Below are positions 5,708 to 58,110 of a DNA stretch of 64,000 nt, piece by piece. The position numbers and the translations under genes are program-made. How positions within the stretch are numbered: the first letter of the stretch is position 1; each line of letters starts with the position of its first letter. The notes beneath the pieces are model-generated. The model saw only the letters and a program-made list of their open reading frames with translations, was not told the origin of the DNA and ran no database searches. The stretch is from Eledone cirrhosa (lineage: Eukaryota): assembly GCA_964016885.1 (NCBI GenBank), contig OZ024740.1, positions 92,442,001 to 92,506,000 on the forward strand. The letters run 5' to 3'.

Positions 5708-5741
<34 letters not shown>

Positions 5742-5743
<2 letters not shown>

Positions 5744-8190
5744 CGAAAGAAATGTGGTAAGGAACCAGGTGGACCATAACGTACCAAAGTACTCAATACT
5801 TAGAGTAGTAGAGTGGGTAATAGAATCAAGTAAGACCCCGACTGCTGAGCTCAAGCCGTTTCGACGGCTAATTCTGGACTGAATGAACATTTATTCTGGT
5901 ATTCAAATAGCCGAGGTTATCAAGGGTAATTCAATATATGGTCAAATAAATAATCACCAGGATTGGTCACATCACAAGTTAGTAGTAAATCTGTGATGGC
6001 CCATTGGTGGGGGAAGGGGTAGCTGAACCTGCCGGTAGGAGAAAAGGGAAGAGGGAGTGGAGTAGACCCATTCATGTGTTGGTAGTGCCGGCTACAGCTG
6101 GGTGTGAGGTCAAAGAGGATACTGGGGAGGGGGAGGGGAGGAAGTCAAAACGGTAAGTAGAACAATGAATGGTAAAACTATAAAAAGTACTGAGAGAGAA
6201 AAAAAAAAAGCAAACTCTGGTTACTAAGACATAAGACTCTCGCTATTGCTAGGCTAAAGAAATACATAAATAAATAAATAAACAAATAAGTGAATAAAAG
6301 AATAGATAAATAAATAAAAAAAAATATTTATATATAATGAAGAATAAAAAAATAAATAAAAATAAACTAGGTGGGACGCAAATAAAGGGACCCTTATACT
6401 AGGTATAAGTGCGTGTATTGTCCGGTGACGGGTCAAAAAAAGGGGGGGGGGGGGCAAAATACTAAAGAGACTACCACGAAATAATAAAGGTTTCTACCCC
6501 AACCACAGGGCCAGCAACCACCCAGAGCAAGAAAGTAAACTAGTACGAGAATATAATTCAGGGTCCCGCAAAAAAATACTCGTGCTAACTCTAAGGGTAC
6601 CGCCACGAAACAAAAAGTCTTATACAAGCTACATGAAAGATCGTACGAAATAAAAGTAAAGAACGGAAAATTAATACAGAAACAACCCTACCCCCCCCCC
6701 CCCCCCCCCAAAAAAAAAGGGAAAAAGAGGAAAGAAATACTGGATAAACGAGAAATTAAAGCAAAGATGCCACTAAGAAATATAGAAGGCACGGAAAAAA
6801 TGTGCAGCGGTCGGAGAAGGGGGTAAGTATCCGAAGTCTAACACCTCTGCTATAAAAAGCGGAGTCAGCCAAATCTTTCATAGAATAGGGGAGGGCGGGG
6901 CGCTGAAGCTACAAGGGACCGAGGGGCTACCTCGGGTGGGCGAGAAAAAGACGACGACAAAGAAAGGGAACTGGGGTAGAAGGACTAGGGAGGGATGGGG
7001 TGAAGGAGGAAATATAGAGGAAGCGATAAAAGAATGTAAAACAAGATCTTACGTCTCCATTGGCATTCAGGGGTTACCCCTTACAAAATAGGCAAGTGGG
7101 GTGTTATAGCCCTAGTCTACCCACCCAGGGTCATTATGGGGTTTGAGGATGAGGTAAGTCCTACGTAATCGGTGTTTACATGCAGTAACCAGTTCATCTT
7201 TCTTGTTTAGGAGATGGTCCGTCGAAAACAGCATTTGTAAAGTTTCCTCCGACCATAAATTGCACGGACGGCGTCCTCCCGTGTAAGAGTTGGCTCTGGA
7301 CAGTAATTTCCAAGTGAGATCATAGTTGATGTTGTTGTCCTTGAGGTCTCATATGTGGCCCGAAAGTGTAGTGGCGTGACGCCGGGCCGGGTTTCGGAAG
7401 GTATGTCTGTGTTGGTATAGCCGGATCTTGCAGTCACATGCAGTTAATCCTATATAAGCTTTGTTGGAGGTGTCCGTGCTCACGTTGCACTGGTAGATCA
7501 CATTACGGTCTCTGCATCTGTTGTCGAGGGGGCAACTGGATCTATCAGGACAGTTACACCTCCTGGTCGGCTCTCCACTACTATTTAGGTTGTTTCTTCC
7601 ATCGGGGTTGAGTTTGTTGTTGTTAGAGGAGACGATGTTTTGTGCGAAGTTAGGTGTAGTGCTGTAAGAGAGTTTGATGGTATTTTGGTTAATTATGTTG
7701 TGGTAGAGGTGTTGTGGTGGGAATTGTTTTTCAATGAGCCTAAAGAAAATTTTCCCGATGGGAGTTGTCACATCGGCGTTGTGGGGAGGATTGATCCATG
7801 TTACATTGCTTGAGCGGCGGTGTCGCCTGCTGGTTCCGCTAATGGGAGCTGGGCAGTAGGATATTTCCTCCCGGAAGCCACTCCGCTTGAGGGCCTGGTT
7901 GTATTAAGGCGCATGTTCATCGAATATCTTCTCATTAGCTGACAAACGGGATATGCGGAGGGAGATGTTTTTGATAAGGTTGTTGGTGATGTTCCTAGGA
8001 TGGTTAGATCGGCGGTGAATGTAGTGCAGGTTGTCATTGGGTTTCCTGTATGGGTAGTACATGTCATTATTGAGATCGAGGGTAACGGCCAGGAAATAAA
8101 CTTGGGTCAGGGACGTTTGTAGAGTTATTTTAAATCCCCAGTGGCGGAAGAAGCTGATTAATTGTTTACGGACCCGATCTGTTCTACTGT
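5742..8190 (-). mobile_element. Naiad-type PLE, copy A (5'-truncated, inverted)
   Basis: Reverse complement of ~11880-14307. Encodes CNCPDRSSCPL...VIYQC...YIG (ORF 7349-7771). Its 3' end CTTTCGTTA joins (TA)n at 5712-5741. Confidence 0.92.
5835..5927 (-). ncRNA. Type I hammerhead ribozyme, U3-A8 core variant
   Basis: Minus strand: ACCC TTGATAA cctcggcta...tagccgtc GAAA CGGCT tgagctc AGCAG TC GGGGT. Confidence 0.75.
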
Positions 8191-8193
8191 ACT

Positions 8194-8350
8194 ACTCTGT
8201 TAAGTTGCTACGGAGTTTTTGTAGGAATCAGTTATGTCTGGGTTTGAATTTAAGGTTCTTGACCAATTGGAAGAGGTCATTCTCGAAGGGTGAGAGCAAA
8301 GGGTTCGGGGTGGGGGGATTTGTAGGTAATAAATCCTAATCTCTCCTTCC
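8194..8350 (-). mobile_element. Internal fragment of the same Naiad at the inversion junction
   Basis: Reverse complement of ~10954-11108. Confidence 0.85.
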
Positions 8351-8354
8351 GAGA

Positions 8355-9336
8355 TAATTTCCTGAACGTTAAACTCGATCTCAATAATGACCTGTACTAC
8401 CCATACAGGAAACCCAATAACAACCTGCACTATATCCACCGCCGATCTAACCATCCTAGGAACATCACCAACAACCTGGTCAAAAACATCTCCCTCCGCA
8501 TATCCCGTTTGTCAGCTAATGAGAAGATATTCGATGAACATGCGCCTTACTCCAACCAGGCCCTCAAGCGGAGCGGCTTCCGGGAGGTAATATCCTACTG
8601 TCCAGCTCCCATTAGCGGAACCAGCAGGCGACACCGCCGCTCACGCAATGTAACATGGTTCAATCCTCCCCACAACGCCGATGTGACAACTCCCATCGGG
8701 AAAATTTTCTTTAGGCTCATTGAAAAACAATTCCCACCACAACACCTCTACCACAACATAATTAACAAAAATACCATCAAACTCTCTTACAGCACTACAC
8801 CTAACTTCGCACAAAACATCGTCTCCTCTAACAACAACAAACTCAACCCCGATGGAAGAAACAACCTAAATAGTAGTGGAGAGCCGACCAGGAGGTGTAA
8901 CTGTCCTGATAGATCCAGTTGCCCCCTCGACAACAGATGCAGAGACCGTAATGTGATCTACCAGTGCAACGTGAGCACGGACACCTCCAACAAAGCTTAT
9001 ATAGGATTAACTGCATGTGACTGCAAGATCCGGCTATACCAACACAGACATACCTTCCGAAACCCGGCCCGGCGTCACGCCACTACACTTTCGGGCCACA
9101 TATGGGACCTCGAGGACTACAACATCAACTATGATCTCACTTCGAAATTACTGTCCAGAGCCAACTCTTACACGGGAGGACGCCGTCCGTGCAATTTATG
9201 GTCGGAGGAAACATTACAAATGCTGTTTTCGACGGACCAACTCCTAAACAAGAAAGATGAACTGGTTACTGCATGTAAACACCGATTACGTAGGACTTAC
9301 CTCATCCTCAAACCCCATAATGACCCGGGGGCGTAG
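8355..9336 (+). pseudogene. C-terminal RT thumb, CxC-x5-CP zinc motif and GIY-YIG endonuclease of the PLE ORF
   Basis: ORF 8509-9336: RNVTWFNPP, TIKLSYS, CNCPDRSSCPLDNRC, VIYQC...YIGLT, CNLW, LLNKKDELVTACKH. Confidence 0.9.
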
Positions 9337-10512
9337 ACTAGGGCTATATCACCGCACTTGCCTATTTTGAAAGGGGTAACCCCTGCTTGCCAATGGAGAC
9401 GTAAGATCATCTTTTACATTCCTTTATCGCTTCCTCTATATTTCCTCCTTCCCCTCATCCCTCCCTAGTCCTTCTACCCCAGTTCCCTTTCTTTGTCGTC
9501 GTTTTTTCTCGCCCACCCGAGGTAGCCCCTCGGTCTCTCGTAGCTTCAGCAACACCACCCCCTCCCTTATTCTATGATAGATTTGGCTGACTCCGCTTTT
9601 TATAGCAGATGTGTTAGACTTCGGTTACTTGTCCCCTTCTCCGACCGCTGTGCCTTTTTTCCGTGCCTTCTATATTTCTTAGTTGCATCTTTACTTTAAT
9701 TTCTCGTTTATCCAGTATTTCTTTCCTCTGTTTCCCTTTTTTTTTGAGGGGGGGGGGGGTGTTTCTGTATTAATTTTCCGTTCTTTACTTTTACTTCGTA
9801 CGATCTTTCATGTAGCTTGTATAAGACTTTTTGTTTCGTGGCGGTACCCTTAGAGTTAGCACGTGTATTTTTTTGCGGGACCCTGAATTATATTCTAGTA
9901 CTAGTTTACTTTCTTGCTCTGGGTTGTTGCTGGCCCTGCGATTGGGGTAGAAACCTTTATTATTTCGTGGTAGTCTCTTTAGTATTTTGGCCCCACCCCT
10001 TTGTTAACCCGTCACCGTACGATACACGCACTTATACCTCGTATAAGGGTCCCTTTATTTGCGTCCCACCTAGTTTATTTTTATTTATTTTTTTATTCTT
10101 CATTATATATATTTTTTTAAAAATTTATTTATCTATTCTTTTATTCACTTATTTGTTTATTTATTTATTTATGTATTTCTTTAGCCTAGCAATAGCGAGA
10201 GACTTAAGTCTTAGTAACCAGACTTTGCTTATTTTTGTTTCACTCTCCGTACTTTATATAGTTTTACCCTACATTGTTCTACTTACCGTTTCGACTTCCT
10301 CCCCCTCGCCCTCCCCAGTATCCTCTTTGACCTCACACCCTGCTGTAGCCGGCACTACCAACGCATGAATGGGTCTACTCCACCCCCTCTCCCCTTTTCT
10401 CCTACCGGCAGATTCAGCTAGCCCTTCCCCCACCAATTTGCCATCACAGATTTACTACTAACTTGTGATGTGACCAATCCTGGTGATTATCTCTTTGACC
10501 ATATATGGAATT

Positions 10513-10606
10513 ACCCCTTGATAAGGTCGGCTATTTAAATACCAGAATAAATTTTCATTCAGTCCAGAATTAGCCGTCGAAACGGCTTGAGCTCAGCCGT
10601 CGGGGT
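10513..10606 (+). ncRNA. Type I hammerhead ribozyme, U3-A8 core variant, extended stem II
   Basis: Stem I ACCCC/GGGGT; core TTGATAA; stem II GGTCGGCTA...TAGCCGTC; GAAA; stem III CGGCT/AGCCG; GUC triplet, predicted cut after 10601. Confidence 0.85.
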
Positions 10607-10791
10607 CTTACTTGTTCCTATTGCCCACTCTACTACCCTATGTATTGAATACTTTCGTGCGTTATGGTCCACCTGGTTCCTTACCACATTTCCTTCGTTA
10701 TCTAGCTCCTATCCCCGTAGTAGAGCACTCTCCGACCTTACCACGCCGTATCCAGTCTTTTCCGCTAAGCTCAATTTCTTTCACTCGCACC

Positions 10792-12957
10792 ATGCGAAAA
10801 CACAACATCGACTTCTCCACCAAGAACATCCCAATCCCACCGAAAAATCTTTACCTTCGGATGCTCACGCAATAAATCGATCTATTTGCGAAAAGACTTA
10901 GATGGAGAACTTTTTTCTACGACATATTTTGCGACTATCAGGACTTCGGTACCAAGGAGAGATTCGGATTTATTACCAACAAATCCCCTCCCCCCGAACC
11001 CTTTGCTCTCACCCTTCGAGAATGACCTCTTCCCACTGGTCAAGAACCTTAAATTCAAACCCAGACACAACCGATTCCTACAAAAACTCCGTAGCAATTT
11101 AACAGAGTATGATAACACCAATGACATCATGGTGCATTCGGATAAAACTGGGAACCTATACTTTGTCAACCCCGACAGATACCACACACTGTTCAGGAGT
11201 AGCCTAAACTCCATCTGTAAAAAGGCTAGCCACTCATGCATCGAGGACATTAATCGAGATGGAAAACAAATTAACTCCAGCCTCGGGGTCGCCGACCGCC
11301 CCGAACCCCTAGACACACGGACACCCTACTTCACACTGAAGGACCACAAATCCGATTTCGACCGTAAACCATCTATCAGGCTTATAAACACAACGAAGTC
11401 CGACATAGGGAGAATCAGCCAAAAATCCTAGACCGCGAGATACCAAAAGTCAAGCAACACGCCCGACTTAGCCTATGGATAAACACCCAGGAATTTATCT
11501 CATGCTTCAGCAATATGGAGGATAAACGAGACACTAAATTTATCCAGTTCGACATAGAGAGCTACTATGCTTCTATCACCTTACCGCTACTTACTGCCGC
11601 CTTGGACTTCGCCGAAGCACTCGTGCCCATCACCGACCAGAAAAGAAAAATCATCCTCCACGGCAGGAAGACAGTCTTACTCTTTGACAACTCCAAATGG
11701 ATAAAAAGAGCTCCCGACTCACCCTTCGACGTCAGCATGGGGTCTACGGATTCGGCGGAGGTCACAGATCTTATAGGATTATTCCTTATAGCCAAACTCA
11801 CCGATATGTTTCCTGCTTTCGGTGGTGGATTGTACCGTGATGATGGGCTCCCTACCCTTAAATGGTACAACCCCGGTAGTACAGATCGGGTCCGTAAACA
11901 ATTAATCAGCTTCTTCCGCGACTGGGGATTTAAAATAACCCTACAAACGTCCATGACCCGAGTTAATTTCCTGGACGTTACCCTCGATCTCAATAATGAC
12001 CTGTACTACACCATACATGAAACCCAATGACAACCTGCACTTCGTCCACCGGCGATCTAACCATCCTAGGATGATCACCAACAACCTGGTCAAAAACATC
12101 TCCCTCCGCATATCCCGTTTGTCAGCTAATGAGGAGATATTCGATGAACATGCGCCTTACTACAACCAGGTCGTCAAGCGGAGCGGCTTCCGGGAGGAAA
12201 TATCCTACTGTCCAGCTCCCATTAGCGGATCAGCAGGCGACACCGCCGCTCACGCAATGTAACATGGTTCAATCCTACCCACAACGCCGATGTGACAACT
12301 ACCATCGGGAAAATTTTCTTTAGGCTCATTGAAAAACACTTCCCACCACAACACCGCTACCACAACATAATTAACAAAAATACCACAAAACTCTCTTACA
12401 GCACTACACCTAACTTCGCACAAAACATCGTCTCCTCTAACAACAACAAACTCAACTCCGATGGAACAAACAACCTATATAGCAGTGGAGAGCCGACCAG
12501 GAGGTGCAACTGTCCTGATAGATCCAGTTGCCACCTCGACAACAGATGCGGAGACCGTAATGTGATCTACCAGTGCAACGTGAGCACGGACACCTCCAAC
12601 AAAGCTTATATAGGATTAACCGCATGTGACTTCAAGACCCGGCTATACCAACACAGACATACCTTCAGAAACCCGGCCCGGTGTCACGCCACCACACTTT
12701 CGGGCCACATATGGGACCTCAAGGACAACAACATCAACTATGATCTCACTTGGAAATTACTGTCCAGAGCCACCTCTTACACGGGAGGACGCCGTCCGTG
12801 CAATTTATGGTCGGAGGAAACTTTACACATGCTGTTTTCGACGGACCAACTCCTAAACAAGAAAGATGAACTGGTTACTGCATGTAAACACCAATTACGT
12901 AGGACTTACCTCGCCCTCAAACCCCATAATGACCCGGGGGGGGGGGGGGTAGACTAG
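10792..12957 (+). pseudogene. PLE RT + GIY-YIG polyprotein (~720 codons) with frameshifts and stops
   Basis: MRKHNIDFSTKNIPIP N-terminus, SDKTGNLY, TLKDHK, RLINTTKSDIGRIS, FDIESYY, MGSTDSAE, LYRDDGL, VNFLDVTLDL, GIY-YIG. Split over ORFs 10612, 10886, 11515, 11996 and 12292. Confidence 0.92.
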
Positions 12958-14117
12958 GGCTATAACACCCCACTTGCCTATTTTGTAAGGGGAAACCCCT
13001 GCTTGCCAATGGAGACGTAAGATCTTCTTTTACATTCTTTTATCGCTTCCTCTATATTTCCTCCACCCATCCCTCCCCAGTCCTTCTACCCCAGTTCCCT
13101 TTCTTTGTCGTCGTCTTTTTCTCGCCCACCCGAGGTAGCCCCTCGGTCCTTGTTGCTTCAGTACCACCACCCCTCCCCTATTTTATGAAAGATTTGGCTG
13201 ACTCCGCTTTTTATAGCAGACGTGTTAGACTTCGGATACTTTCCCCCTTCTCCGACCGCTGTCCCTTTTTTCCGTGCCTTCTATATTTCTTAGTGGCATC
13301 TTTGCTTTAATTTCTCGTTTATCCAGTATTTCTTACCTCTTTTTCCCTTTTTTTGGGGGGGGGGTTCTGTATTAATTTTCAGTTCTTTACTTTTACTTCG
13401 TACGATCTTTCATGTAGCTTGTATAAGACTTTTTTGTTTCGTGGCGGTACCCTCAGAGTTAGCACGTGTATTTTTTTGCGGGACCCTGAATTATATTCTC
13501 GTACTAGTTTACTTTCTTGCTCTGGGTGGTTGCTGGCCCTGTGATTGGGGTAGAAACCTTTATTATTTCGTGGTAGTCTCTTTAGTTTTTTGGCGCCCCC
13601 CTTTGTTGACACGTTACCGTACGATACACGCACTTATACCTCGTATAAGGGTCCCTTTAATTCAGTCCCACCTAGTTTATTTTTATTTATTTTTTTATTC
13701 TTAATTATATATATATATATTTTTTTTTTATTTATTTATCTACGTCTTTTATAAACTTATTTGTTTATTTATTTATTTATGTATTTCTTTAGCCTAGCAA
13801 TAGCGAGAGAGTTAAGTCTTAGTAACCATACTTTGCTTATTTTTTTCTCTCTGAGTACTTTTTATAGTTTTATCATTCATTGTTCTACTTACCGTTTCGA
13901 CTTCCTCCCCCTCCTCCTCCCCAGTATCCTCTTTGACCTCACACCCAGCTGTAGCCGGCTCTACCAAGGCATGAATGGGTCTACTCCACCCCTCTTCCAT
14001 TTTCTCCTACCGGCAGATTCAACTACCCCTTCCCCCACCAATTTGCCATCACAGATTTACTACTAACTTGTGATGTGACCAATCCTGGTGATTATCTCTT
14101 TGACCATATATGGGATT

Positions 14118-14211
14118 ACCCCTTGATAAGGTCGGCTATTTAAATACCAGAATAAATTTTCATTCAGTCAAGAATTAGCCGTCGAAACGGCTTGGGCTCA
14201 GCCGTCGTGGT
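14118..14211 (+). ncRNA. Type I hammerhead ribozyme, U3-A8 core variant
   Basis: ACCCC TTGATAA GGTCGGCTA...TAGCCGTC GAAA CGGCT tgggctc AGCCG TC GTGGT. Confidence 0.8.
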
Positions 14212-14307
14212 CTTACTTGTTCCTATTACCCACTCTACTACCCTAAGTATTGAGTACTCTGGTACGTTATGGTCCCCCTGGTTCCTTACCACATTTCCTT
14301 CGTTATA

Positions 14308-14619
14308 TAGCTCCTATCCCCGTAGTAGAGCACTTTCCGACCTTACCACGCCGTATCCAGACTTTTCCGCTAAGCTCAATTTCTTTCACCCGCACCATGC
14401 GAAAACGCAACATCGACTTCTCTACCAAGAACATCCCAATCCCACTGAAAAACTTTACCTTCGGATGCTTACGCAAAAAAATCGATCTATTTGCGAAAAG
14501 ACTTACATGGAGAACTTTTTTCTACGACAGATTTTGCGACAATCAGGACTTCGGTACCAACGAGAGATTCAGATTTATTACCTACAAATCCCCCCCCCCC
14601 CCCCGAACCCTTTGCTCTC

Positions 14620-14623
<4 letters not shown>
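14308..14623 (+). mobile_element. Start of a further tandem Naiad unit, truncated at (TA)n
   Basis: Matches 10701-11012 (MRKRNIDFSTKNIP...), followed by (TA)n 14624-14660. Confidence 0.88.
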
Positions 14624-19096: not shown

Positions 19097-19154
<58 letters not shown>

Positions 19155-19169
19155 GTTTTAATATAGATG

Positions 19170-19220
19170 AGATTCTACAGGACTAGAACTGTTTCATTCA
19201 TTAGAAATCATCAGGAATCT
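19170..19220 (-). ncRNA. Type I hammerhead
   Basis: Reverse complement of 20519-20569. Confidence 0.8.
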
Positions 19221-19877
19221 GGGTATCAAAAAATAAAAATGGTATTTATAGGTCTCTACAAGTGGTAGGAGAGGGTGGGGAGTGGGATGGGTGTTGGTCA
19301 TTGGGTGATAGAAAAGGGAATTCATTAAAAGCTAATTCTACAAAGCTATAGTTTATTTTTATTTATTTATGTTTTTAGAGTAACAAGGGCAGACAGAATT
19401 CTATAAACAGGTTCCGGATGGCATACCATTCCTTGTCATTAAGTTTCCCTTAAGCTAACAGATGTCTATAAGATCAGTGGGGGGTCAGTCATGGTCGATA
19501 GTATTAAAGAAAAGGGAGATTCTTTAAAAGCTAAAATCATTAAGGTTCTACTAAGTGACAAGGTTTAGAGAATTCTGTAGACAGATTCAAAATACTGAGT
19601 GCATATCTTACAATTATCTTCGAACTTCTCTTAAACTAATCAACTATATGCCAACAATCAACAGACACATTCACAAAAAAACATACTGACTCACACACTC
19701 ACGCGCAACCATAAACACACATACACATACACATATACATATATATCTATGTGTATTTGTGTGTATATGGATACACATGTATATTTGTGTTTGTATGTAT
19801 GTGTGTGAGTGTATTTATATGTGTATATATGTGTGTGTGTGTGTGTACATATATGTATGTGTGTGTGTATGTATATA

Positions 19878-19942
<65 letters not shown>

Positions 19943-20518
19943 ATGTATGTGTATGCATATAAATATATTTATATATATGTGTGTGTGTTTTTTATGTGTG
20001 TATATGTGTATGTGTATGTGTGTTTATGGTTGCGCGTGAGTGTGTGAGTGAGTATGTTTTTTTGTGAATGTGTCTGTTGATTTTTGGCATATAGTTGATT
20101 AGTTTAAGAGAAGTTCGAAGATAATTGTAAGATATGCACTCAGTATTTTGAATCTTTCTACAGAATTCTCTAAACCTTTGTCACTTGGTAGAACCTTAAT
20201 GATTTTAGCTTTTAAAGAATCTCCCTTTTCTTTAATTCTATCGACCATGACTGACCCCCCACTGATCTTATAGACATCTGTTAGCTTAAGAGAAACTTAA
20301 TGACAAGGAATGGTATGCCATCCGGAACCTGTTTATAGAATTCTGTCTGCCCTTGTTACTCTAAAAACATAAATAAATAAAAATAAACTCTAGCTTTGTA
20401 GAATTAGCTTTTAATGAATTCCCTTTTCTTTTAACCAATGACCTACACCCATCCCACTCCCCACCCTCTCCTACCACTTGTAGAGACCTATAAATACCAT
20501 TTTTATTTTTTGATACCC

Positions 20519-20569
20519 AGATTCCTGATGATTTCTAATGAATGAAACAGTTCTAGTCCTGTAGAATCT
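20519..20569 (+). ncRNA. Type I hammerhead
   Basis: AGATTC CTGATGA tTTC taat GAAt GAAA CAG ttctagtc CTG TA GAATCT. Confidence 0.82.
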
Positions 20570-20651
20570 CATCTATATTAAAACTGTTATACTCTGCTAT
20601 GTATTGAGTACCTTACTTACTGTGGTTACCTCCGATTCAACCCGGAATAAC

Positions 20652-21932: not shown

Positions 21933-22704
21933 ATTGAGAAACGTTGCTGCTGAAGGCACAGTCTTAAGTTCGTCCACTTTGAATAGGTATCGACGAATTT
22001 TGAAGAGTTGGCAATACTCTGAAAATAATCAGTAATCATAATGTATTTGTTGGAGGTTATATATCGGTTTCTCATTTGAGTTTAATATCTTTTTATTTTT
22101 ACATTAACATTATTTGTATTTCCTTTAGTTTCTTTGGCTTGATATATGGTTTAATGTCCATTTATAATGTCACTTAATGTCTAAGATTTTGACCTCTCCT
22201 TTCTGGTTTAATCAAGTTGATCAGGTCGTTAATCTGGATTGCGTTTTAGATTTAGTTAGATTCATATTATTGAGCGTTTTGTATTATTGTCGTGGATATT
22301 AGTATGTCATATGAAGTACTTAATAGGTACCAGGTTGTTTCTAACCGAAACTGTGTGTACTGCTATAGAACATCCAGTTTAATATATTGCTTTTATACAT
22401 TAGGTCTTTGGAGCGTGGAGTAACATATTAGATTATGAACCTATGCCTGAATTTGTGAGTTTGTTTATCGTATTCTACTGGTATTTAATTTCAGTTTCAG
22501 TCAATTGACAGTCATGTTTACGTATATATGTATAACATACATTGATATCATGTTTCCTTAGGTCAAGGATATTATACAACGGATTAAATTTACCATTATG
22601 GGATCGTACACATTTGCATTTCATCCTATTCTGAGATAATTTTGGGAATGAATAATTTATATAATGTTAAATTCAAATCTATTTACCTTTCTTATGTAAA
22701 CAAA

Positions 22705-23930
22705 TACGATTCTAGCTGAATTTATATTTGTATTAAACTCCAGAGTCTTACATTTAACCTGTTAATAATTCTATTGGCAGATTAATTGCATAAGTTTATT
22801 TAAAAACATTCCTGGTTGAGTGCTTATTCGATCCGTGCTATCTATGCAATTTGTTTTATGATATATACATACTGAATTCATTTGCCAACACCTGGGGAAT
22901 TTCACCTTGTGAGTTACACATGTGCTTTTACAAAGTTCTGCGTCACTCACAATGTTGGTTACAGAGCAAAATACATGTTGATAACGTGATATTCCTTGTT
23001 AGATCTTTATGTTGAAAGTTTATAGTTTTAAGCAGACAATATTATTGTTTTAGGTGTGATAGAAACCCTGCATTTGGATTTCACCATCAATTCCAATTGG
23101 GTCCAGGTCTGTTTTTATCATTTATTCTGTTTGCCCTGTTTTGCTTGATTTATTTTTTGGCTTAGGTGGTTAATGCCGTCTTGACAACTTTTCAGTTTGT
23201 ATGAGGTTTTAACATATTGTTTAGCTCCTGTTTTCTTAACTATTGAACAGCTTGCCAGCATTTCTACGATTTTCAGTTTCGTCTCGCTTTTTCTACCAGC
23301 CGAAATACGATTCTCGCTGAATTTATATTTGTATTAATCTCCCGACTCTTACAATTAACATGTTAATAATAATATTGACAGATTAATTGCATAAGTCTGT
23401 TTTAAAAACTATCCGGTTGTGTGCTTATGTGATTTGTGCTATCTATGCAAGTTTTCGTATTATATACACATACTGAATTCATTTGTCAAAATCTGGGGCA
23501 TTTCCCTTGTGAGTTACACATGTGCTTTTACAAAGTTCTGCGTCACTCACAATGTTGGTTACAGAGCAAAATACATGTTGATAACGTGATATTCCTTGTT
23601 CAATATTTATGCTGAAAGCTTATAGTTTTAAGCAGACAGTATTATTGATTTAGTTATCATAGAAACCATGCATTTGGATTTTACCCTCAATTCCAATTGG
23701 GTCCATGTCTGTTTTCTATCATTTATTTTGTTTGACCTGTTTAGCTTGACTTGTTTTTTGGCTTATGTGGTTAATGCTTTCTTGACCATTTTTCAATTTG
23801 TATGGCGTTTTAACATATAGTTTAGCTCTAGTTGTCTTAACTATTGGATCGCATGCCAGCATTTCTACGATTTTGCGTTTCGTTTCGTTTTTTTACCAGC
23901 CAAAATACGATTCTCGGTGAATGTATATTT
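22705..23930. repeat. Tandem repeat, ~600 bp period (2 units plus start of a third)
   Basis: TACGATTCT..GAAT.TATATTT recurs at ~22705, ~23306 and ~23907. The block at 22910-23000 recurs at 23510-23600. Confidence 0.9.
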
Positions 23931-24001
23931 ATATGTAGTATATAAATATATATATATATATATAGTATATATATATATATTGTATATATATATAGTATAT
24001 A

Positions 24002-30329: not shown

Positions 30330-33540
<3,211 letters not shown>

Positions 33541-35320: not shown

Positions 35321-38300
35321 AAACGGAAAAAATGAAACTAAATTTCATTTATCACACTTAGTACGGCTGTTACTTAAATATAAGTACGTGTACGTATATA
35401 CATATATGTATACAGACGTACAGTAGTATGTATATATATATACATACATGCACACATATATATATGTACGTACGGATTTACCGAACATTTATTATAATGC
35501 TCGTTGTGTTTGTAAACAAACATCCCGAATTAAGCCGTACAGTGTTTAGCAACCATCGTTTCCCTTTTGTCCAACATTGACTAAGGAACCATGTACTGTG
35601 GAATTAATTCAGAACCATAATCATCATATAATACTGAATACGAACCATCTATAGAAATATGAAATCAAATTATGGTTAATTGTCAATTGTTTATTTCGAA
35701 TACGTAAAACACAAAAGAAAGAAAGCAGAAAGGAAAAAAAAAGAATTTATTTATATCCTCTCGATTGCACGGTATTTCATATTTGGTATAAGAATACGGC
35801 TATCTGCGCTTCCATGCATGTGGTTGTATACTGAGGAAGGTTTCCAGTAGCGGATAAACTATTGAATAGAATGTAGTTCTATTACACTCCAAAGGAAAAT
35901 AAATACTTTGAATGTTAAACTAAAGGCGCGAACTTCATGTAGTTTGAACTGTATATCATATTTTGCAAACTCGAGTTCACTATCAACGGTAAACTTGGAA
36001 ATGTCACAGCGTTAAATAGAAAAGCCACATAAAATATAATAGAGTTTAAAATATCAAGTTTCAGAATTTCCATAATCGTCTTTTTTCAAACAAACTGAAA
36101 TCAAATATACTTTTCAAAAAACATAATTGAAAATAAAATGTTAGCTTCCAGATTGTTTAAAATCATTAAAATATATTTATTTCATTTAGAAAATATTGTA
36201 TCCGAATTTTAATATATATATATATATATATGGTAAAGCATAAAACTAAAGATAACACTTATGACAAGCTGACATGATTGGCATAGAACAACTCATTCCA
36301 CATTTTGAGGTTGTTCATATTTTGATTTTAAATTTATACTATAAATATGAAAATAAACAATGGAATTGTGGAAAATATTAATTTTATAAGACGTCAAATT
36401 TTAACTCCCATAAAATATTTATTAAATATATTTTTCTATTATTTACATACACATGACTCATTTTTATTCAATCTGATAATCCCGTTTTATTGTTTTAAAG
36501 AGCAATGAATAAGTTTATTTTTCACATGACAATTAAATCTTCATATTGATTTTCAATAATAAAATCAGATGCCTGATATTATGACACAGTAAACTTTGAG
36601 TGGGAAGTGTATCGATGTTATCACATTCAAATTTAAACAATTAAATCTAGCATCAAATCATGCTACACAGACGTTGATATCATTATAATAGTCTACGCAC
36701 ATACAATGGTATTAAAAATGGTTCCTTTAATGTTACTTATGGAGAGACGTCGCCTCTCGCCTATTCTAACTTACCATCTTAAACAAAATGCTTCCCAATT
36801 GATTGAATAGTTTGCATTGTCACTAAATTCATATAAGAAATGCACTGATATCAGAGAATATATTTTATAATTCTAAACGAACATTCTAGCATCAAAAGAT
36901 ACACAATTGTTAACCAAATGCATCTTATAATTGGCCACACGATAACCGTATTCTTTGCCCATATTAAATCATTTAGCCCGTCCAACATTTCACTACAATT
37001 GATAATATTGTTAATAATTATAGCGCAATTTTATGCCGTATGCAATGAAAACCAAAACGCCAACCCACCATAAAAAATGAAGGCAACATTCTGAAATACT
37101 CATAAAATATATTTCTAATTAAATATAAATACTTGAGTTATTTAAGGGCTACGTGTATGTATATGCATATATAGTGTACAAGAGTAATTCATAACTAATA
37201 AAATAGATAGAAAGGTTAGTATAAAATGCATACTTCCCTTCTTTGAGGGAATGTGGGTGTACAGCTGGTGCGTATATAATTCCGAAAGACTCAATAAGTG
37301 TATATTTTATGTAGCATTGCAATATATGGAAAACTTCGTAAGTTTAACTGCGTTTTGTTTAAAAACTACTATGATTGAATATGTATCGATATTGAGTTTA
37401 GTTCTCAATTAAATAGTCGTCTGTTAGCAGTTACTAGTGTAACAATAAACTATATTCTACATACATCGATTATCGTTGTATGTATTATAATTATAGTACA
37501 AACAATGCAGAAAAAGGATCATATGTATTATATTAATTTCCCTATGATCTTGCCATTCCTACACAAAGCGTGCCATACACAATGAACAAACACCATTACG
37601 CATATGAAAATATCAAAAACTGAAAGAAAAAAAATTCAAAGATGAACAGAATAATGAAAGATATATTTGCCCGAACATACAATGTTTTGCTGGTTGGAAC
37701 AACATTCCCCTGAATTATTGACTTAACAATTATTCCCACGTTGAAGCAATACTTGATTAGATAGCACTGTACCAAGTTGTAATCCCTAGTGGTGATGGAA
37801 AGAAATATAACTTTATTTTCTATTTGATTTCCCTACTGAGTCACCTCGTATTTGTGTTTGCCTATGTTCTAAGACGTGTTATACAAATATTGATAACATT
37901 ATGTGCAGCAATTAGTCACCTTCCTCTCCACATACCACGTTCTTTATTTAATATTTCTGGTTCACCTCTCGCATATCTTTGAATCCATTACGAGATAAAA
38001 AGCAACCGATTGATAAAAGTATGCAAAAAATAAAGGGAAAATAGTGAGCAATAATTGGTGCGGTACAAAGAGATGTGAGTTCGAATCCTACTGTCAAAGC
38101 TGTTTGATAACTTTCGCATCCGGAAGCGTGTAAACCTTCCTGTTAAACTTTGAATATTAGTCAATAGACCTGGGTTGAATCTTCTAACTGTAAATTAATT
38201 TCAATAATGTAGATATATGTATATTTAGCTGTCGAAACGGCCGGAGCTCAGCCGTCGGGGTCATAACTACTACAAAGACACACGCACATACGCACACACG

Positions 38301-38928: not shown

Positions 38929-39316
38929 GACGCTATTGTGTTATTGAGCAAGACAATTTATTTCAAGTTGACCCAGTCCACTAAGCTCTAGAAATAAGTT
39001 ACGACGTCACTACCGCCAAGTTGTATCGCTCATTGCATTTCATTTTGACAACATTTATGGCGTGGAAAAGGGAGGCTGGTAGGTATGGGCGACTGTTGGT
39101 CTGTCAAAAAACACCCATGCCCTGATTTGTGCCTCGAGTAGGACATTTTTAGGTGCAAATCCCATGGTCATTCGTGAACGACCATGGTGTTACCCTTTAC
39201 ACACACACACACACTCGCGCAAACTAACACATACGCACGCACACATACACAAACACACGCACACACACACACACACGCACACACACACCCATATGTATAT
39301 ATATATATATACATAT

Positions 39317-39400
39317 AACGAAGGAAATGTGGTAAGGAACAAGATGGACCATAATTAGTAGTCCAGAATTAGCCGTCGAAACGGCTTGAGCTCAGCCTCG
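39317..39400. mobile_element. Tiny inverted remnant of the family-1 Naiad pLTR between microsatellites
   Basis: AACGAAGGAAATGTGGTAAGGAAC (minus-strand 3' end) fused to GTCCAGAATTAGCCGTCGAAACGGCTTGAGCTCAGCC (plus-strand HHR half). A related half-HHR lies at 38225-38262. Confidence 0.8.
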
Positions 39401-42876: not shown

Positions 42877-43512
42877 ATAAGGTAAATTTCTGTAAATCGT
42901 TTGGAAGCCTCGACAATGCAGACGGGTAAATCACCGGGTAACAAGAACCGGTGGTGGAGAGAGAGATGTAAGTGGGTGTACGTTGAGATTTGTGGCGTGT
43001 ATAAGACTGTAACGTGTAGAAGAATGAAGCAAAGAGCGTAAAGGATAAAAATAGAAATAACAACACGAGTGAGAGTTACCTTGGGAGCGATTTAATTGTC
43101 CCTATATATTTCGGATTCACATCCACCGACTGGGTTTTTTTGTCGGGGGGGGGGGGAGGTACGAAACGTGTGCCCCGCTGTTCGTTGTTTTGAACGAACA
43201 GCGGAGGACACGTTTCGTTCCTTACCGACAGACCCCCCCCCCCCCGGACATAACCCCAGTTGATGGATGTGAATCCGAAATATATAGGGACAATTAAATC
43301 TCTCCCAAGGTAACTCTTTCTCGTGTTATTATTTTTATTTTTATCCTTTACGCTCTTTGCTTCATTTCTCTACACGTTACAGTCTTATACACGCCACAAA
43401 TCTCAACGTACACCCACTTACATCTCTCTCTCCACCACCGGATCTTGTTACCCGGAGATTTACCCGTCTGCATTGTCGAGGCTTCCAAACGACTTAAAGA
43501 AATTTACCTTAT
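42877..43512. repeat. Fold-back palindrome with ~310 bp arms and a ~6 nt loop
   Basis: Centre GCTGTTCGTT gttttg AACGAACAGC. The mirrored ORFs 42725(-) and 43323(+) confirm the symmetry. (TA)n lies near both ends. Confidence 0.93.
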
Positions 43513-46600: not shown

Positions 46601-46760
46601 TGATGTTGTAGACGAATCAACAACGGCAGAGCAGAAGAAAGGGAAGGGAGATAAAACGAATTTTGTTTACAGATGTTATACATACACATTTTATTTTTCA
46701 TACCTACTTTTCGTACTTGTTGTACGAACGACGTATTGTTCTGTTGCTTTCCTTTTCTTT

Positions 46761-47525
46761 ATTCATCCAGATATTTTTTTAATAATAAATGACTATTGTT
46801 TTATTATTAAATAGATTTTTTTTTTTGTCATGCATATGCTATTATCATATATCGTTCATATATTTGTATGCATTCCTAAATTTTATTTCCACCGTATTCA
46901 ACCTTTTTTTCAGCAGGCTCCTTTCCAATTATCACTGTTAGATAGTAGAATTGCTGCTTTATTTCCTCATCTTGCTACTATAATTGTTTTTCTTGTTTAT
47001 TTGTCAGTCAGATAGAAGATGTTTTCTACTTTTCACAAATACTATAGGAGTCTGGTAGAAATATTGCTGATTTGCGTTAAAAAGTGAGATATTTGCGGAT
47101 AAATCAACTTTGACCATTTTACAGCTGCGTTAATATTAATTCATCCAGATATTTTTTTAATAATAAATGACTATTGTTTTATTATTAAATAGATTTGTTG
47201 TTTTTTTTTGTCATGCATGTGCTATTATCATTGTTCGTTCATATATTTGTATGCATTCCTAAATTTTATTTTCCACCGTATTCAACCTTTTTTTCAGCAG
47301 TCTCCTTTCCAATTATCACTGTTAGATAGTATAATTACTGCTTTATTTCCTCATCTTGCTTCTATAATTGTTTTTCTTGTTTATTTGTCAGTCAGATAGA
47401 AGATGTTTTCTACTTTTCACAAATATTATAGGAGTCTGGTAGAAATATTGCTGGTTTGCGTTAAACAGTGAGATATTTGCGGATAAATCAAAATTGACCA
47501 TTTTACAGCTGCGTTAATATTAATC
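46761..47525. repeat. ~380 bp tandem duplication, possibly within a decayed minus-strand PLE
   Basis: ATTCATCCAGATATTTTTT recurs at ~46761 and ~47139. ORFs 46830 and 47208 are paralogous. Confidence 0.88.
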
Positions 47526-49421: not shown

Positions 49422-50368
49422 TCTATATATATAAAACTGTGTTTGTCTGTCTGTCTATCGATTTTTAGCACACATCTCCTCTTAGAATCTCTGACGGAAT
49501 TGCACCGAAATTGCTATACTTGTACATTGAGCCCTAGCGAAGACATCGGAAAAAGATATTTCAAATTCACCCACCCTATGTGACGAAATCGAATATAATG
49601 TATCGATTTTTGAGCGTAAGTTATCAGTTATTTCCATTTGTTCTGTTTACATTGAGCGTCTTACGTAAAAAATTACGCTGGCTTTCTCAGCGTTTAAAAT
49701 GACATTAACACAATACACGAACAGTTGTCGAGCCAGCAAAATATTGACCTGCAAAATTCATCAGTTCGAACACTAAGCTTCCGTTTTGCTTCATTTCCAT
49801 TTAAAAGCATTTTAAAACAATATGTTTACTTGAAAACAAGTCTATTTAAAGACTACGTAAAACAAGCAAATATTTCGTCGTTAGGCGTGCAGACAGACAG
49901 TCGTGCAGACAGACAGTCGTGCAGAGAGGTGATATACGCGTGCAGACAGATAGTCGTGGAGAGAGGTGATATAGGCGTGCAGACAGACAGTCGTGCAGAG
50001 AGGTGATATAGGCGTTCAGACAGACAGTCGTGCAGAGAGGTGATATAGGCGTGCAGACAGACATAACTGATAATTTAGTAACGCTAATGTTTTTCTCTGC
50101 GCTGCAGTGTTTACATTTTCGATCTTTGTTAATAAATAACCAGTGCAGTTTCTATCCCCAGCATCCTCTTTTGTTATAACATTCGGGTTATCGTTATGTT
50201 TTCTTAACTTCATAAGGCATATTGTTGGTTGAGGGAATATTAATCAAAAACACCACATGCAAGTCTGCACAGTAGGCACTACAGTTTTTAAGCCAAGAAA
50301 GAAACTTAACATTGTAACTTTAACACAGCTACTGAGCGACCCCGAGCAACGCCGGGCTTTACTGCTAG
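49422..50368 (+). mobile_element. Non-autonomous Helitron with internal minisatellite
   Basis: 5' TCTATATATATAAAA; 3' hairpin CCCGAGCAACGCCGGG then CTAG; inserted between A and T with no TSD. A ~33 bp GTGCAGACAGACAGTCGTGCAGAGAGGTGATATAGGC array lies at 49885-50062. Confidence 0.9.
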
Positions 50369-50961
50369 TACATTATAAAGAAAGAAGAAACATTAGATAT
50401 AAATAACAAGATATAATATACCTAAATTCCTTCAATATTCTCGACTACGTAGTTTCTTTGCTATTATGCAAAGCATTACATCATAGAGATGCAGTATTTT
50501 TGTGAGTTGTTTTCGACTTATCAAGAGGATAGCTCATTTAGAGTTCAAAACACGCCCGTAGGACGCGAGATAGAATCCCGAAAGCCGGAGGGGGAACTTA
50601 TCACGTGATACAGCGGTCAAGAAACAGAGCTAAGCCTCTTACAACCAAGAGAAAAATACCACAAAAGGCGGATGGGGTATTTATGTCAAGGCCGTAGAAG
50701 AGTTGTCTAGGAGAGCGAGAAGTGTGAGTAGTGTAAGCTTAACAGCAGTCACTACACTTAAGTGGTTACCATACCGTAGGTAGTTATAAGCAATACAAAG
50801 ACATATACATAGACATGCGAATACATGCATATACATGCATATACCCACATATATCCTTGGGTTTGTCTGGTGCCAACCTTAACCGTTTTTGCTCTATGAA
50901 TAATAGCGACAAAATAATCTGAATGGATTAGATTGATTCAATATCAGAGCTATATAATACA

Positions 50962-51932
50962 CTAGCAGTAAAGCCCGGCGTTGCTCGGGGTCGCTCAGTA
51001 GCTGTGTTAAAGTTACAATGTTAAGTTTCTTTCTTGGCTTAAAAACTGTAGTGTCTACTGTGCAGACTTGCATGTGGTGTTTTTGATTAATATTCCCTCA
51101 ACCAACAATATGCCTTATGAAGTTAAGAAGACATAACGATAACCCGAATGTTATAACAAAAGAGGATGCTGGTTATAGAAACTGCACTGGTTATTTATTA
51201 ACAAAGATCGAAAATGTAAACACTGCAACGCAGAGAAAAACATTAGCGTAACCAAATTATCAGTTATGTCTGTCTGCACGCCTATATCACCTCTCTGCAC
51301 GACTGTCTGTCTGCACGCCTATATCACCTCTCTGCACGACTGTCTGTCTGCACGCCTATATTACCTCTCTGCACGACTGTCTGTCTGCACGCCTATATCA
51401 CCTGTCTGCACGACTGTCTGTCTGCACGCCTATATCACCTCTCCGCACGACTATCTGTCTGCACGCGTATATCACCTCTCTGCACGACTGTCTGTCTGCA
51501 CGACTGTCTGTCTGCACGCCTAACGACGAAATATTTGCTTGTTTTACGTAGTCTTTAAATAGACTTGTTTTCAAGTAAAAATATTGTTTTAAAATGCTTT
51601 TAAATGGAAATGAAGCAAAACGGAAGCTTAGTGTTCGAACTAATGAATTTTGCAGGTCAATATTTTGCTGGCTCGTAATTTTTTACGTAAGACGCTCAAT
51701 GTAAACAGAACAAAGGGAAATAACTGATAACTTACGCTCAAAAATCGATACATTATATTCGATTTCGTCACATAGAGTGGGTGAATTTGAAATATTTTAT
51801 TTTTCCGATGTCTTCGCTAGGGCTCAATGTACAAGTATAGCAATTTCGGTGCAATTCCGTGAGAGATTCTAAGAGGAGATGTGTGTCAAAAATCGATAGA
51901 CAGACAGACAACCACAGTTTTATATATATAGA
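50962..51932 (-). mobile_element. Non-autonomous Helitron, same family, opposite orientation
   Basis: Near-identical reverse complement of 49422-50368, with more minisatellite units and a ~50 bp deletion. A|T insertion. Confidence 0.9.
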
Positions 51933-55769: not shown

Positions 55770-56310
55770 ATAATTTCGTATAACAATTTGTTGTCCCAAC
55801 AACTAGTTGCACCTAACTATTTATAGATACAAATTCGTATATATTTAAATCATTGATTCTACTTTAGGCACAAGTCCAGCAAATACCCAGTGCATTACTG
55901 TTACTTTATTTTATCGACCCCGTAAGAACGAAAGGCAAAGTTAACCTCGGAATTTGAACTCAGATCGTAAAGGGACGTAACTCTGCTGGAAAGCATGGCG
56001 TCCGACCCTCTACCGATACTGCCAATCCACCGCCCCGTATATATTTAAATAATGTTACTATATACAAATTCAATACTTAAAGAAGGATAAATATTTACAG
56101 ATACTTACCTCCATCCCTAATTTAATATGAAGAAACGCTAATATTAAATACTCCATTAACTCAAATAAATTTAGTGTCGCCCACGCGTATAAGCCAGGCA
56201 ATCGTAAATGTAATTTGTGTCTCACAGAATGTCGTCTAATTATGAAATCTGATTTAGAGATCCTAAATAAGAAATTGGAAACTCTTTGCCCTTGCTTACA
56301 CAGGAATTTT
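55770..56310 (+). pseudogene. Naiad-type GIY-YIG C-terminal remnant interrupted by a SINE
   Basis: AHAYKPGNRKCNLCLTECRLIMKSDLEILNKKLETLCPCLHR at ~56180-56305. Confidence 0.8.
55851..56035 (-). mobile_element. Full-length SINE with 15 bp TSD
   Basis: TSD CGTATATATTTAAAT at 55836-55850 and 56036-56050. Confidence 0.9.
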
Positions 56311-57924
56311 TCTTGTACTATGTAAACTATAATAAATTAAAGAGTGCGGTACTGTACGGTTTATTTCTATTAATCGGGGTTAGTGAAATATGTTGGATTA
56401 CTTTGAACAAATAATGAATGAATATTACATAATGTATCTATTAAATTCCGTAGCTGTTGATTAAATATATGTTAATGTTCATTTAAAGATTTCACTTCTT
56501 TAAAATATTCAAATGTCAACAGTTCCAGTTAGCGATCGCTTAAATAAACATTCATATATTTCCGTCACTAATTTTCTCCTAATGCAGTTTATATATAATA
56601 TCGTCTTGTTTTAATGTATCATGGATTATGTTACTGATTACATAAGAAAGTGTAACGTAGTCTTCGAACAATTCCCGTGTATATTGTCTATTACGATTTT
56701 ATTTGATGTATCATACTTACATGTATATATACTTGCTTGTAATATCAATATGCAGACCACACAAGCTAGCAGAAGCCACCTGAAGGGTAATTTTTCTGCT
56801 AGTTATAATGAATACGAGCCCACGTAACATATTTTCGAAAACTATAGAGGGTTTCTGCATACAGTTTGGCCTCAACCTAGTCTTACATGCATTAGGTATG
56901 GATTTGACTTAAATATTATCTAAGTGGTTTCATATAACGATATTATATATAATAGATTTAATAGCAATATGGGAAATCTGAAACTCTTTCTACTTGGTAA
57001 CACAGGGATTATTTTGCCATCTAAATTGCAATTCCATAAGGATGTGACCGTAATTTTAATCTCTTCCACTTTAGAGATGATTCTATCTATTATTACAGCT
57101 ATTAGGCAAAAAAGAGCCTTAGATAATAGTTAAATTATATAATGTTAAATTCGCAGTAGGAGATTAGCTTACTTTAGTAGTCTTAATTTGACTTCTTCCC
57201 TAGCCCATCTTATATGTTGCTTTATGTTCAACACAAAAATGCTCGAAACCGGTAAATTTAAGTGAAATTAACTAATTAATCTGAAAGAATCAAAATGAGT
57301 ACTCAAGCTCATGTTCCAATATGATTAGCCCTATGTGATATATTAAAAGATACTAATTTTCTATAGAGAGAGAGAGATCGACAAATAGACAGATATATAT
57401 AGTAGATAGATATATAGTAGATAGATATATAGATAGATAGATATTCGAAAATGAGGCACCTTTAATATATTCCACAGGGATAATAATATACGAAAAAGAA
57501 GTTGAATATTCATTTAGAATTGTAAGCGTAATTTCATACTATTGTTACTAATACATTTTTATTTTAACTTCAATACTTTTGCGGTGTTGAATTGTCATCG
57601 TTGTTAGATATATAAAAGGAAAACAAATTGAAATAGATACTTTTGATTATGTTGAGAGTGACAGCGATGAAAGATCAAATGCATCATATGCAGGATGAAG
57701 ACTGGCGTCTCATCTTTCAATTTGATGACAAATATTTTCAGAACAACTTTAAAAAAGAACAACGATCATATGTTATGAAATACAACAGTGAATTATGTTT
57801 ATTCTGATATTATACGAAATCAATTGTAAGTGGTAAAAGCCTACGGAATGCATATACATAGAGGATGTTTAATTGAGACAATTTAACCTGGAGAAAAGGG
57901 GTTGGTGATATCACTGCATATATA

Positions 57925-58110
57925 TAGGAGAGTGTTTAACCCCGACGGCAGGGACAAGCCGTTTCGACGGCTATATCTGGAAATAGCCGTCGAGACGACT
58001 TGAGCTCTGCCGTTGGTGTTAAGCATTCTCCTATTACCCGCTCTACTACCCTAAGTATTGAGTAGTCTGGTGGGTTGTGGTCCATCTAGTTCCTTAACAC
58101 ACCTCCTTCG
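57925..58110. mobile_element. Short inverted pair of family-1 pLTR 3' ends
   Basis: CCCCGACGGC...GCCGTTTCGACGGCTAT atctgg aaATAGCCGTCGAGACG.... The plus arm runs to the usual 3' end CCTTCG, followed by a TA-rich tract. Confidence 0.8.

What the first reader, a model, noticed from the sequence alone, without database searches (positions are those of the whole stretch)
10513..10606. Non-canonical hammerhead (UUGAUAA core, C3-G8 replaced by U3-A8) with a long stem II insert in a young PLE family
Seen: all three copies (5835, 10513, 14118) have TTGATAA instead of CTGANGA, inside an otherwise complete type I fold with a GUC site. Stem II encloses a ~37 nt insert, and stem III is a real 5 bp hairpin that is also near-palindromic. 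Known: positions 3 and 8 form a tertiary Watson-Crick pair, so the double change is compensatory. Searches requiring CUGANGA would miss it, and PLE HHRs are usually minimal. Inference: a functional variant, selected for cleavage, that may act as monomer or dimer.
Basis: partly seen in the sequence, partly recalled or inferred. Interest (0 to 1): 0.8.

Follow-up and report, generated by a model that had tools for sequence, protein, structure and literature searches.

The report
Transposon hammerhead with drifting core pair
A hammerhead ribozyme-shaped RNA near the end of a very abundant retrotransposon carries an already known U-A swap in its core, but the family's ancestors spread with that pair mismatched and most insertions copy the cut site intact, so it is likely a slow or assisted cutter rather than an essential one.

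Summary
The motif is real: a type I hammerhead (10513-10606; predicted cut 10601/10602) in the 3' repeat of a young Hydra-clade Penelope-like element (3531-bp unit, intact 717-aa ORFs elsewhere). The three window copies come from one insertion; two carry stem-breaking changes. Across 14 subfamilies 0 of 12 core columns vary against 22 of 31 insert columns, position 7 takes all four bases, and stem II shows compensatory changes. U3-A8 itself is published, also for PLE hammerheads. New here: the 3-8 pair does not covary (U3-A8 5338, C3·A8 1786, U3·G8 24, C3-G8 11 exact matches), and a tree places the C3·A8 mismatch on the trunk leading to today's U3-A8 copies. 76 of 90 sampled insertion arms read through the cut site, and 48 of the 57 that get that far stop in a 13-nt window inside the stem II insert, so about 86% of 52,000+ copies hold only half a ribozyme. 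Best reading: a selected but slow, dimer- or protein-assisted ribozyme not needed for each insertion. Cleavage untested; no RNA data.

The parts
10513..10606 (+). Type I hammerhead motif, the only complete one of the three window copies
10507..10618 (+). Extended stem I (GGAAU/GUUCC distal helix beyond a bulge); its base abuts the first 3' terminus of insertions
   Evidence: predicted fold
10518..10524 (+). Core 5' half U3 U4 G5 A6 U7 A8 A9; position 7 free, 3 and 8 vary between subfamilies by transitions only
10525..10578 (+). Stem II: G10.1-C11.1, 2x1 internal loop, 6-9 bp helix with compensatory changes, 37-nt irregular extension with distal hairpin
10555..10567 (+). Cluster of insertion 5' ends (-47 to -35 from the cut site), around a conserved T(T/C)AGT(C/T) word whose A is 10561
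10579..10601 (+). G12 A13 A14 A15.1, near-palindromic stem III with GAGCTC loop, GUC triplet; predicted cut after C10601
10619..10701 (+). 80-nt 'tail' between the two 3' termini of insertions (10621 and 10701); inferred reverse-transcription start sites
   Evidence: (71 of 90); PMC11167929
10792..12957 (+). Broken RT-GIY-YIG ORF of a Hydra-clade PLE (92.8% identical to an intact 717-aa copy)
14118..14211 (+). Second hammerhead copy, one unit downstream; stem I mismatch and loop III change
5835..5927 (-). Third hammerhead copy in the inverted arm; G10.1>C and stem III mismatch, does not fold as a hammerhead
5737..14622 (.). Single composite insertion: inverted 5'-truncated arm plus partial tandem of about 1.8 units

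Best explanation
This is a type I hammerhead fold in the 3' repeat of a Hydra-clade Penelope-like retrotransposon, conserved across subfamilies, that likely cuts slowly and likely needs a dimer partner or the element's protein, so that most insertion templates stay uncut. Shown: position in the element, core conservation, stem II covariation, drift of the 3-8 pair (U·G, U-A, C·A, then U-A again along the sampled lineage), two 3' termini 19 and 99 nt downstream of the cut site, read-through of that site, and a cluster of 5' ends inside stem II. Inferred: RT starts internally at the two termini, as shown for the anole PLE; an uncut RNA is the usual template; cleavage, when it happens, would trim tandem transcripts to unit length and part the downstream RT start sites from the RNA body; a competing rod-like fold and the palindromic stem III would tune this. 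U3-A8 is the present state of a weakly constrained pair, not a special adaptation.
For: Core: 0 of 12 columns vary among 14 subfamilies vs 22 of 31 insert columns (Fisher p=2e-5); in 83 copies gathered without a core anchor, 82 keep U4 G5 A6 and 83 keep A9. Position 7 takes T, G, C, A in amplified subfamilies. The 5' strand of the older subfamily C was predicted from its 3' strand and found 447 times vs 1 control; three stem II pairs change on both sides (covariation score above 500 of 500 shuffles, though relatedness inflates this). 3-8 counts 5338/1786/24/11; C3-G8 expected 8.0 under independence. Tree with positions 3, 7, 8 masked: C3·A8 forms a grade between U3-A8 subfamilies on starred branches; one clade rejected. 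76 of 90 arms cross the scissile bond, 5 stop at it; 102 of 111 in a second count. Dimer fold favoured in 4 of 4; competing hairpin over GAAA has P 0.55-0.80 in three common subfamilies. PMC11167929: a PLE hammerhead is protein-assisted and its mutants do not impair insertion in vitro.
Against: No cleavage assay and no RNA run. PMC9901934 found that in one type III hammerhead only the G3-C8 swap rescued activity, all other single and double core changes being low, so U3-A8 and above all C3·A8 may be near-dead. The 10513, Y and B copies fold well as monomers, so a partner may not be needed. Read-through is equally expected from a cut and re-ligated circle. Most copies were found with a core anchor, which inflates core conservation; controls for that only for the younger subfamilies. 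The tree uses 233 columns, a midpoint root and cannot exclude recombination (subfamily D looks mosaic). That 3 and 8 changed only by transitions rests on three or four events.
Confidence: 0.58

Rival explanations
1. Catalytically dead or nearly dead relic: the fold is kept as a binding site for the element's protein, as a landmark for the RT start at the base of stem I, or because it overlaps the promoter.
For: The trunk lineage amplified at least 1786 copies with a C3·A8 mismatch; U3·G8 subfamilies exist; no pile-up of arm ends at the cut site; the first 3' terminus sits right at the base of extended stem I; PMC9901934 and PMC11167929 show single changes at 3 or 8 abolish or cut activity in other hammerheads.
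Against: The unpaired catalytic letters (U4 G5 A6 A9 G12 A13 A14, C17) stay fixed while the one free position (7) toggles, which a mere binding site need not do; the Watson-Crick pair was regained in the youngest subfamilies; natural U3-A8 hammerheads are regarded as active (PMC3088659).
Confidence: 0.2
2. Efficient, essential ribozyme: tandem transcripts are cut to unit length and re-ligated to circles that RT copies through the sealed junction.
For: Stable stems I-III and monomer fold in the 10513, Y and B copies; perfect 3531-bp tandem arrays with 1 mismatch between units; model proposed in PMC4209133; a C3·A8 RNA could be cut in trans by a partner in a dimer (inference).
Against: No 3-8 covariation and a mismatch on the trunk; a circle has no 5' end, yet 48 of 57 arms stop in one 13-nt window away from the strong helices; hammerhead mutants did not affect insertion for the anole PLE (PMC11167929).
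Confidence: 0.18
3. Chance resemblance of a GC-rich repeat end to a hammerhead.
For: Folding z-scores of the window copies are not significant; no Rfam hit; a loose descriptor gives 4 other hits in the window.
Against: Same place as the canonical hammerheads of all listed Hydra families and of 6 of 8 metagenome relatives; core-specific conservation and predicted-then-found stem II covariation.
Confidence: 0.03

Closest known systems
U3-A8 minimal hammerheads of Schistosoma Cercyon PLEs (Cervera and de la Pena 2014, PMC4209133)
   Same: PLE terminal repeat, type I, U3-A8 instead of C3-G8, larger than usual helix II, palindromic helix III region, proposed dimer action
   Different: Those lack or barely have helix III and carry a bulge between 9 and 10.1; here stem III is 5-6 bp with a 7-nt loop, the bulge follows G10.1, and stem II carries a 37-43-nt extension
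Hydra-clade PLE hammerheads (Craig et al. 2021, PMC8557442, File S2)
   Same: Same element clade by protein motifs, same position near the 3' end, (TA)n targets
   Different: All 26 Hydra rows (25 families) in File S2 have CTGANGA, loops II of 3-10 nt and loops III of 1-3 nt; this family has Y3/R8 variants, a long stem II and a 3.5-kb unit
PAc (Poseidon, Anolis) hammerhead and internal RT initiation (Frangieh et al. 2024, PMC11167929)
   Same: Two RT start sites downstream of the ribozyme bracketing a 'tail'; uncut RNA is the insertion template
   Different: PAc has C3-G8, overlaps the ORF start and has a 30-40-nt type tail; here the tail is 80 nt, both sites lie upstream of the ORF, and 5' ends cluster inside stem II
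Natural U3-A8 hammerheads (Perreault et al. 2011, PMC3088659)
   Same: 3-8 pair swapped to U-A in nature
   Different: Reported as covariation; here the single-change states C3·A8 and U3·G8 are themselves amplified subfamilies
PLE-X1 hammerheads of Selaginella (PMC8557442 File S2)
   Same: Long (29-35 nt) loop II in a PLE hammerhead
   Different: C3-G8 core, EN-less plant elements

Membership tests
Type I hammerhead ribozyme | Three stems around the core with both ends in stem I | tested here: met
   (10513 copy; not the 5835 and 14118 copies)
Type I hammerhead ribozyme | U4 G5 A6, A9, G12 A13 A14, A15.1-U16.1, H17, G10.1-C11.1 | tested here: met
Type I hammerhead ribozyme | Canonical C3 and G8 | tested here: not met
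   U3-A8; an accepted natural variant per PMC3088659 and PMC4209133
Type I hammerhead ribozyme | Watson-Crick 3-8 pair kept by covariation | tested here: not met
   Pair present in 5338 copies, absent in 1786 C3·A8 copies; no excess of C3-G8
Type I hammerhead ribozyme | Covariation of stems | tested here: inconclusive
   Stem II: 3 pairs with changes on both sides; stems I and III: none, nearly invariant
Type I hammerhead ribozyme | Match to an Rfam hammerhead model | tested here: not met
   No hammerhead among the 150 listed of 158 matches; 0 matches at E<=10 on 10450-10700
Type I hammerhead ribozyme | Stem I-stem II tertiary contact | not tested
   A bulge in stem I and an internal loop in stem II exist; no contact was modelled
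Type I hammerhead ribozyme | Self-cleavage after H17 | not testable with these tools
   Needs an assay; no RNA run listed
Metazoan PLE minimal hammerhead (min-HHR) | Absent or 1-2 bp helix III that forces dimer action | tested here: not met
   5-6 bp stem III, P 0.76-0.98 in 10513, A2, Y, B copies
Metazoan PLE minimal hammerhead (min-HHR) | Palindromic helix III/loop 3 and location in the pLTR | tested here: met
Hydra-clade PLE | RWK-like, DKT, CxCX5C linker, CxxC and CxH motifs, C-terminal GIY-YIG | tested here: met
   RWR 37, DKT 117, CNCPDRSIC 572, YIG 606, CNLC 670, CKH 698
Hydra-clade PLE | No CCHH finger in the endonuclease; insertion into (TA)n | tested here: met
   One Cys only before YIG, read by eye; (TA)n flanks
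Hydra-clade PLE | Generally under 3 kb with a canonical hammerhead | tested here: not met
   Unit 3531-3543 bp, non-canonical core; a typical trait, not a strict one
Hydra-clade PLE | Placement in the RT tree | not tested
   No reference proteins were aligned

The most novel reading that the evidence does not exclude
The element's RNA begins inside its own ribozyme: a transcription start (or processing site) in the stem II insert leaves the 5' copy as a half-hammerhead that cannot cut alone, RT starting at the nearby internal sites runs off that end to make the 50,000+ short insertions, and the weak, drifting 3-8 pair keeps the downstream full ribozyme slow enough for long copies to be made. 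The genome would then record both the RNA's 5' end and a natural fitness path (U·G, U-A, C·A, U-A) through the hammerhead active site.
Probability: 0.3. Interest if true: 0.75.

Novelty: new variant of a known kind. Interest (0 to 1): 0.5.

Why it matters
The role of hammerheads in Penelope-like elements is an open question. This family offers a natural series of active-site variants with copy numbers as a fitness read-out, and genomic support for the in vitro finding that uncut RNA is the insertion template. If the mismatch form still cuts, the 3-8 rule used in ribozyme searches is too strict; if it does not, a retroelement thrived for several subfamilies without cleavage while keeping the rest of the core. 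The cluster of 5' ends gives a precise place to look for the element's RNA end. The headline feature alone (U3-A8) is known.

Tried and rejected
Rfam: no hammerhead hit. Pfam: 0 families for four window fragments and for the intact ORF. First guesses of Naiad or Neptune (recalled) dropped after motif comparison with PMC8557442. The 11 C3-G8 copies first looked like a canonical subfamily; they fit single A8>G changes of C3·A8 copies. A first fast tree suggested two separate C3·A8 side branches; the careful 48-row tree shows a grade on the trunk. Cap-derived extra G at arm ends on the A at 10561: 7 of 19 vs 27 of 83 (p=0.79) and 5 of 10 vs 10 of 31 (p=0.45, one locus counted twice): inconclusive, no support for a single capped start. 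Excess of arm ends at the cut site: 5 of 81 at 0/+1, 4 of 111; three of the five are joints with partner arms, so not taken as evidence. No correlation of the two arms' lengths. RNAalifold on the alignment returns a mixed, non-hammerhead consensus. No RNA holder listed. The tool for contigs around homologous proteins was closed, so other animals' close relatives were not seen; the best protein hits were 54% identical or less. Lunse et al. 2017, Przybilski and Hammann 2007, Nelson and Uhlenbeck 2008 and Martick and Scott 2006 were not held, so no rate for C3U/G8A or G8A is cited. Earlier findings: none.

Full report
Observation. In the 10513 copy: stem I ACCCC 10513-10517 with GGGGT 10602-10606; core UUGAUAA 10518-10524; G10.1 10525 with C11.1 10578; CGGCUA/UAGCCG around 37 nt (10534-10570); GAAA 10579-10582; CGGCU/AGCCG around UGAGCUC; GUC ending at 10601. 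Its minimum-energy fold is the hammerhead, with stem probabilities 0.94-0.97, though the energy is not unusual (14 of 200 shuffles fold as well). The other two copies carry stem-breaking changes and do not fold so. All three lie in one composite insertion, 5737-14622, so they count once. Rfam finds no hammerhead here.

The element. Intact relatives have a 717-aa ORF in 3531-3543-bp tandem units, two neighbours differing at 1 base. The protein has RWR, DKT, YRDD, a CxCX5C linker, a C-terminal YIG, CxxC and CxH and no CCHH finger, and copies sit in (TA)n. These are the traits of the Hydra clade (PMC8557442, section 11 and passages read). I did not place it in an RT tree. In that paper's File S2 (supplement part 2 of 59 read) all 26 Hydra rows have CTGANGA cores with short loops; 6 of 8 metagenome relatives also show canonical cores downstream of the match, and one gave a weak U3-A8 descriptor hit upstream.

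Is the ribozyme fold selected? Among 14 subfamilies of 3 or more copies (213 copies, after dropping 28 of 249 without homologous upstream sequence, 4 unclassified and 4 in two groups of two), 0 of 12 core columns change their majority letter against 22 of 31 insert columns (p=2e-5). Those copies were anchored on the core; in 83 copies gathered without that anchor, 82 keep U4 G5 A6 and all keep A9. Position 7, the free position of the consensus (PMC7151607 passage), takes all four bases in amplified subfamilies. For the older subfamily C, known first only by its 3' half, I predicted the 5' strand of stem II from pairing and found it 447 times against 1 control. Three stem II pairs change on both sides; stems I and III hardly vary and show no such change (34 hand-picked copies). 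The insert extends stem II irregularly, with a distal hairpin (72% of cells paired). A model built from the alignment finds only family members in 486 kb.

The 3-8 pair. Exact genome-wide counts with one shared flank: U3-A8 5338, C3·A8 1786, U3·G8 24, C3-G8 11. Independence predicts 8.0 C3-G8 (p=0.19), and G8 is as rare on C3 as on U3: no covariation. C3·A8 marks real subfamilies, shared by both arms of single insertions. With another flank, subfamilies C2 and D carry U3·G8, with 1 clear and 2 ambiguous C3-G8 copies. An IQ-TREE tree of 48 of the 221 copies, positions 3, 7 and 8 masked, gives a ladder D (U·G), B (U-A), B0 and A0 (C·A), then A and Y (U-A) on mostly starred branches, and rejects one C3·A8 clade. 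So the line leading to the window's copies and to the youngest intact copies likely passed through a mismatch and regained a pair by C3U. Limits: 233 columns, midpoint root, possible recombination, and a faster 221-row tree drew two side branches instead.

What insertions record. Arms end at two places, 10621 and 10701; the 80-nt spacing holds in 71 of 90. This matches the two internal RT start sites and 'tail' shown for the anole PLE, where hammerhead mutants did not impair insertion and cleavage needed protein (PMC11167929, parts 1-2 of 4 read). Of 90 distinct tail-anchored arms (from the first 93 of 42,304 matches, all on one chromosome; 3 dropped as identical, which may under-count long copies), 9 stop before the cut site, 5 at it and 76 read through. 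Of the 57 that pass stem II's 3' strand, 48 stop between -47 and -35 (6.5% per base, against 0.8% over the 31 bases before and 0 of 7 over -61 to -100). Genome-wide, 7159 matches hold the 5' core against 52,348 for the 3' half (13.7%), and contig depth in two public runs steps 13- and 18-fold at about 10561 (contigs, kind of run not on record, one study). The stops lie past the strong helices, around a conserved T(T/C)AGT(C/T) word that resembles an initiator (recalled, no call). A test for a cap-derived G was inconclusive and the ends spread over 13 nt, so an RNA 5' end, a nuclease site and a protein or tertiary block all remain open.

Folding options. The palindromic stem III makes the double-hammerhead dimer 13-17 kcal/mol more stable than two monomers in 4 of 4 copies. 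Repeated CGGCU/AGCCG words allow a rival hairpin over GAAA, with probability 0.55-0.80 in the A, A0 and B0 copies but 0.01-0.23 in 10513, A2, A3, Y and B. Halves split at 10561 re-form the hammerhead in 3 of 4 copies in silico. These are predictions.

Known and new. U3-A8 in nature: PMC3088659 (section 8 read). U3-A8 in PLE hammerheads, large helix II, palindromic helix III, low activity: PMC4209133 (parts 1-2 of 4 read, supplements not seen). Long loop II in PLE hammerheads: File S2. In one type III hammerhead only the G3-C8 swap rescued the core (PMC9901934 passages). Background only: PMC6765202 and PMC3884650 (passages), bioRxiv 2026.07.22.740005 (part 1 of 5). Nine paper searches that ran showed no report of amplified C3·A8 or U3·G8 PLE hammerheads or of 5' ends clustered in stem II, but Lunse et al. 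2017, which by its title treats many PLE hammerhead variants, was not held and may contain such cases.

Verdict. A real, selected hammerhead fold; a new variant of a known kind. The lasting interest lies in the mismatch stage on the lineage and in the 5'-end cluster, both directly testable. Interest 0.5.

Noticed in passing
window 33317-33376 (+) and 30599-32129 (+): A second, distant Hydra-like PLE (about 35% protein identity) with a canonical C3-G8 type I hammerhead 1.2 kb downstream of its ORF remnant, just before (TA)n: an internal canonical control.
   Followed up: partly
window 38225-38265, 39300-39400, 57924-58117: Short insertions of the same family holding only the 3' half of the ribozyme, two as inverted-arm pairs.
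   Followed up: yes
window 56131-56304 (+): Weak remnant of another PLE endonuclease end (38% over 58 aa).
   Followed up: no
window 49434-51920, 19154-20585, 22702-23934, 42877-43512, 46758-47524: Other long inverted or tandem repeats, likely further mobile elements.
   Followed up: no
L170:9360 (+) and its inverted partner; L166:9219 (+); L161:9864 (+): Canonical C3-G8 hammerhead-like motifs with long stem II regions (27-49 nt) and palindromic stem III in random stretches of this genome: long stem II may be common here.
   Followed up: no
L166, minus strand, offset 7018: Descriptor hit with U3-A8 core and a 79-nt stem II region, unrelated in sequence to the family; may be chance.
   Followed up: no
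L289 and L393: Subfamily D joins a C-type 5' strand of stem II to a B-type 3' strand, leaving two mismatches: a recombinant or a half-way stage of compensation.
   Followed up: partly
G000:C1:437201896-437213157 (L061, L062): Array of at least four intact units, 3531 bp apart, neighbours differing at 1 base: very recent activity.
   Followed up: partly
L141-L147: Metagenome contigs with Hydra-like ORFs; 6 carry canonical hammerheads downstream, the motif being identical in L141-L143.
   Followed up: partly
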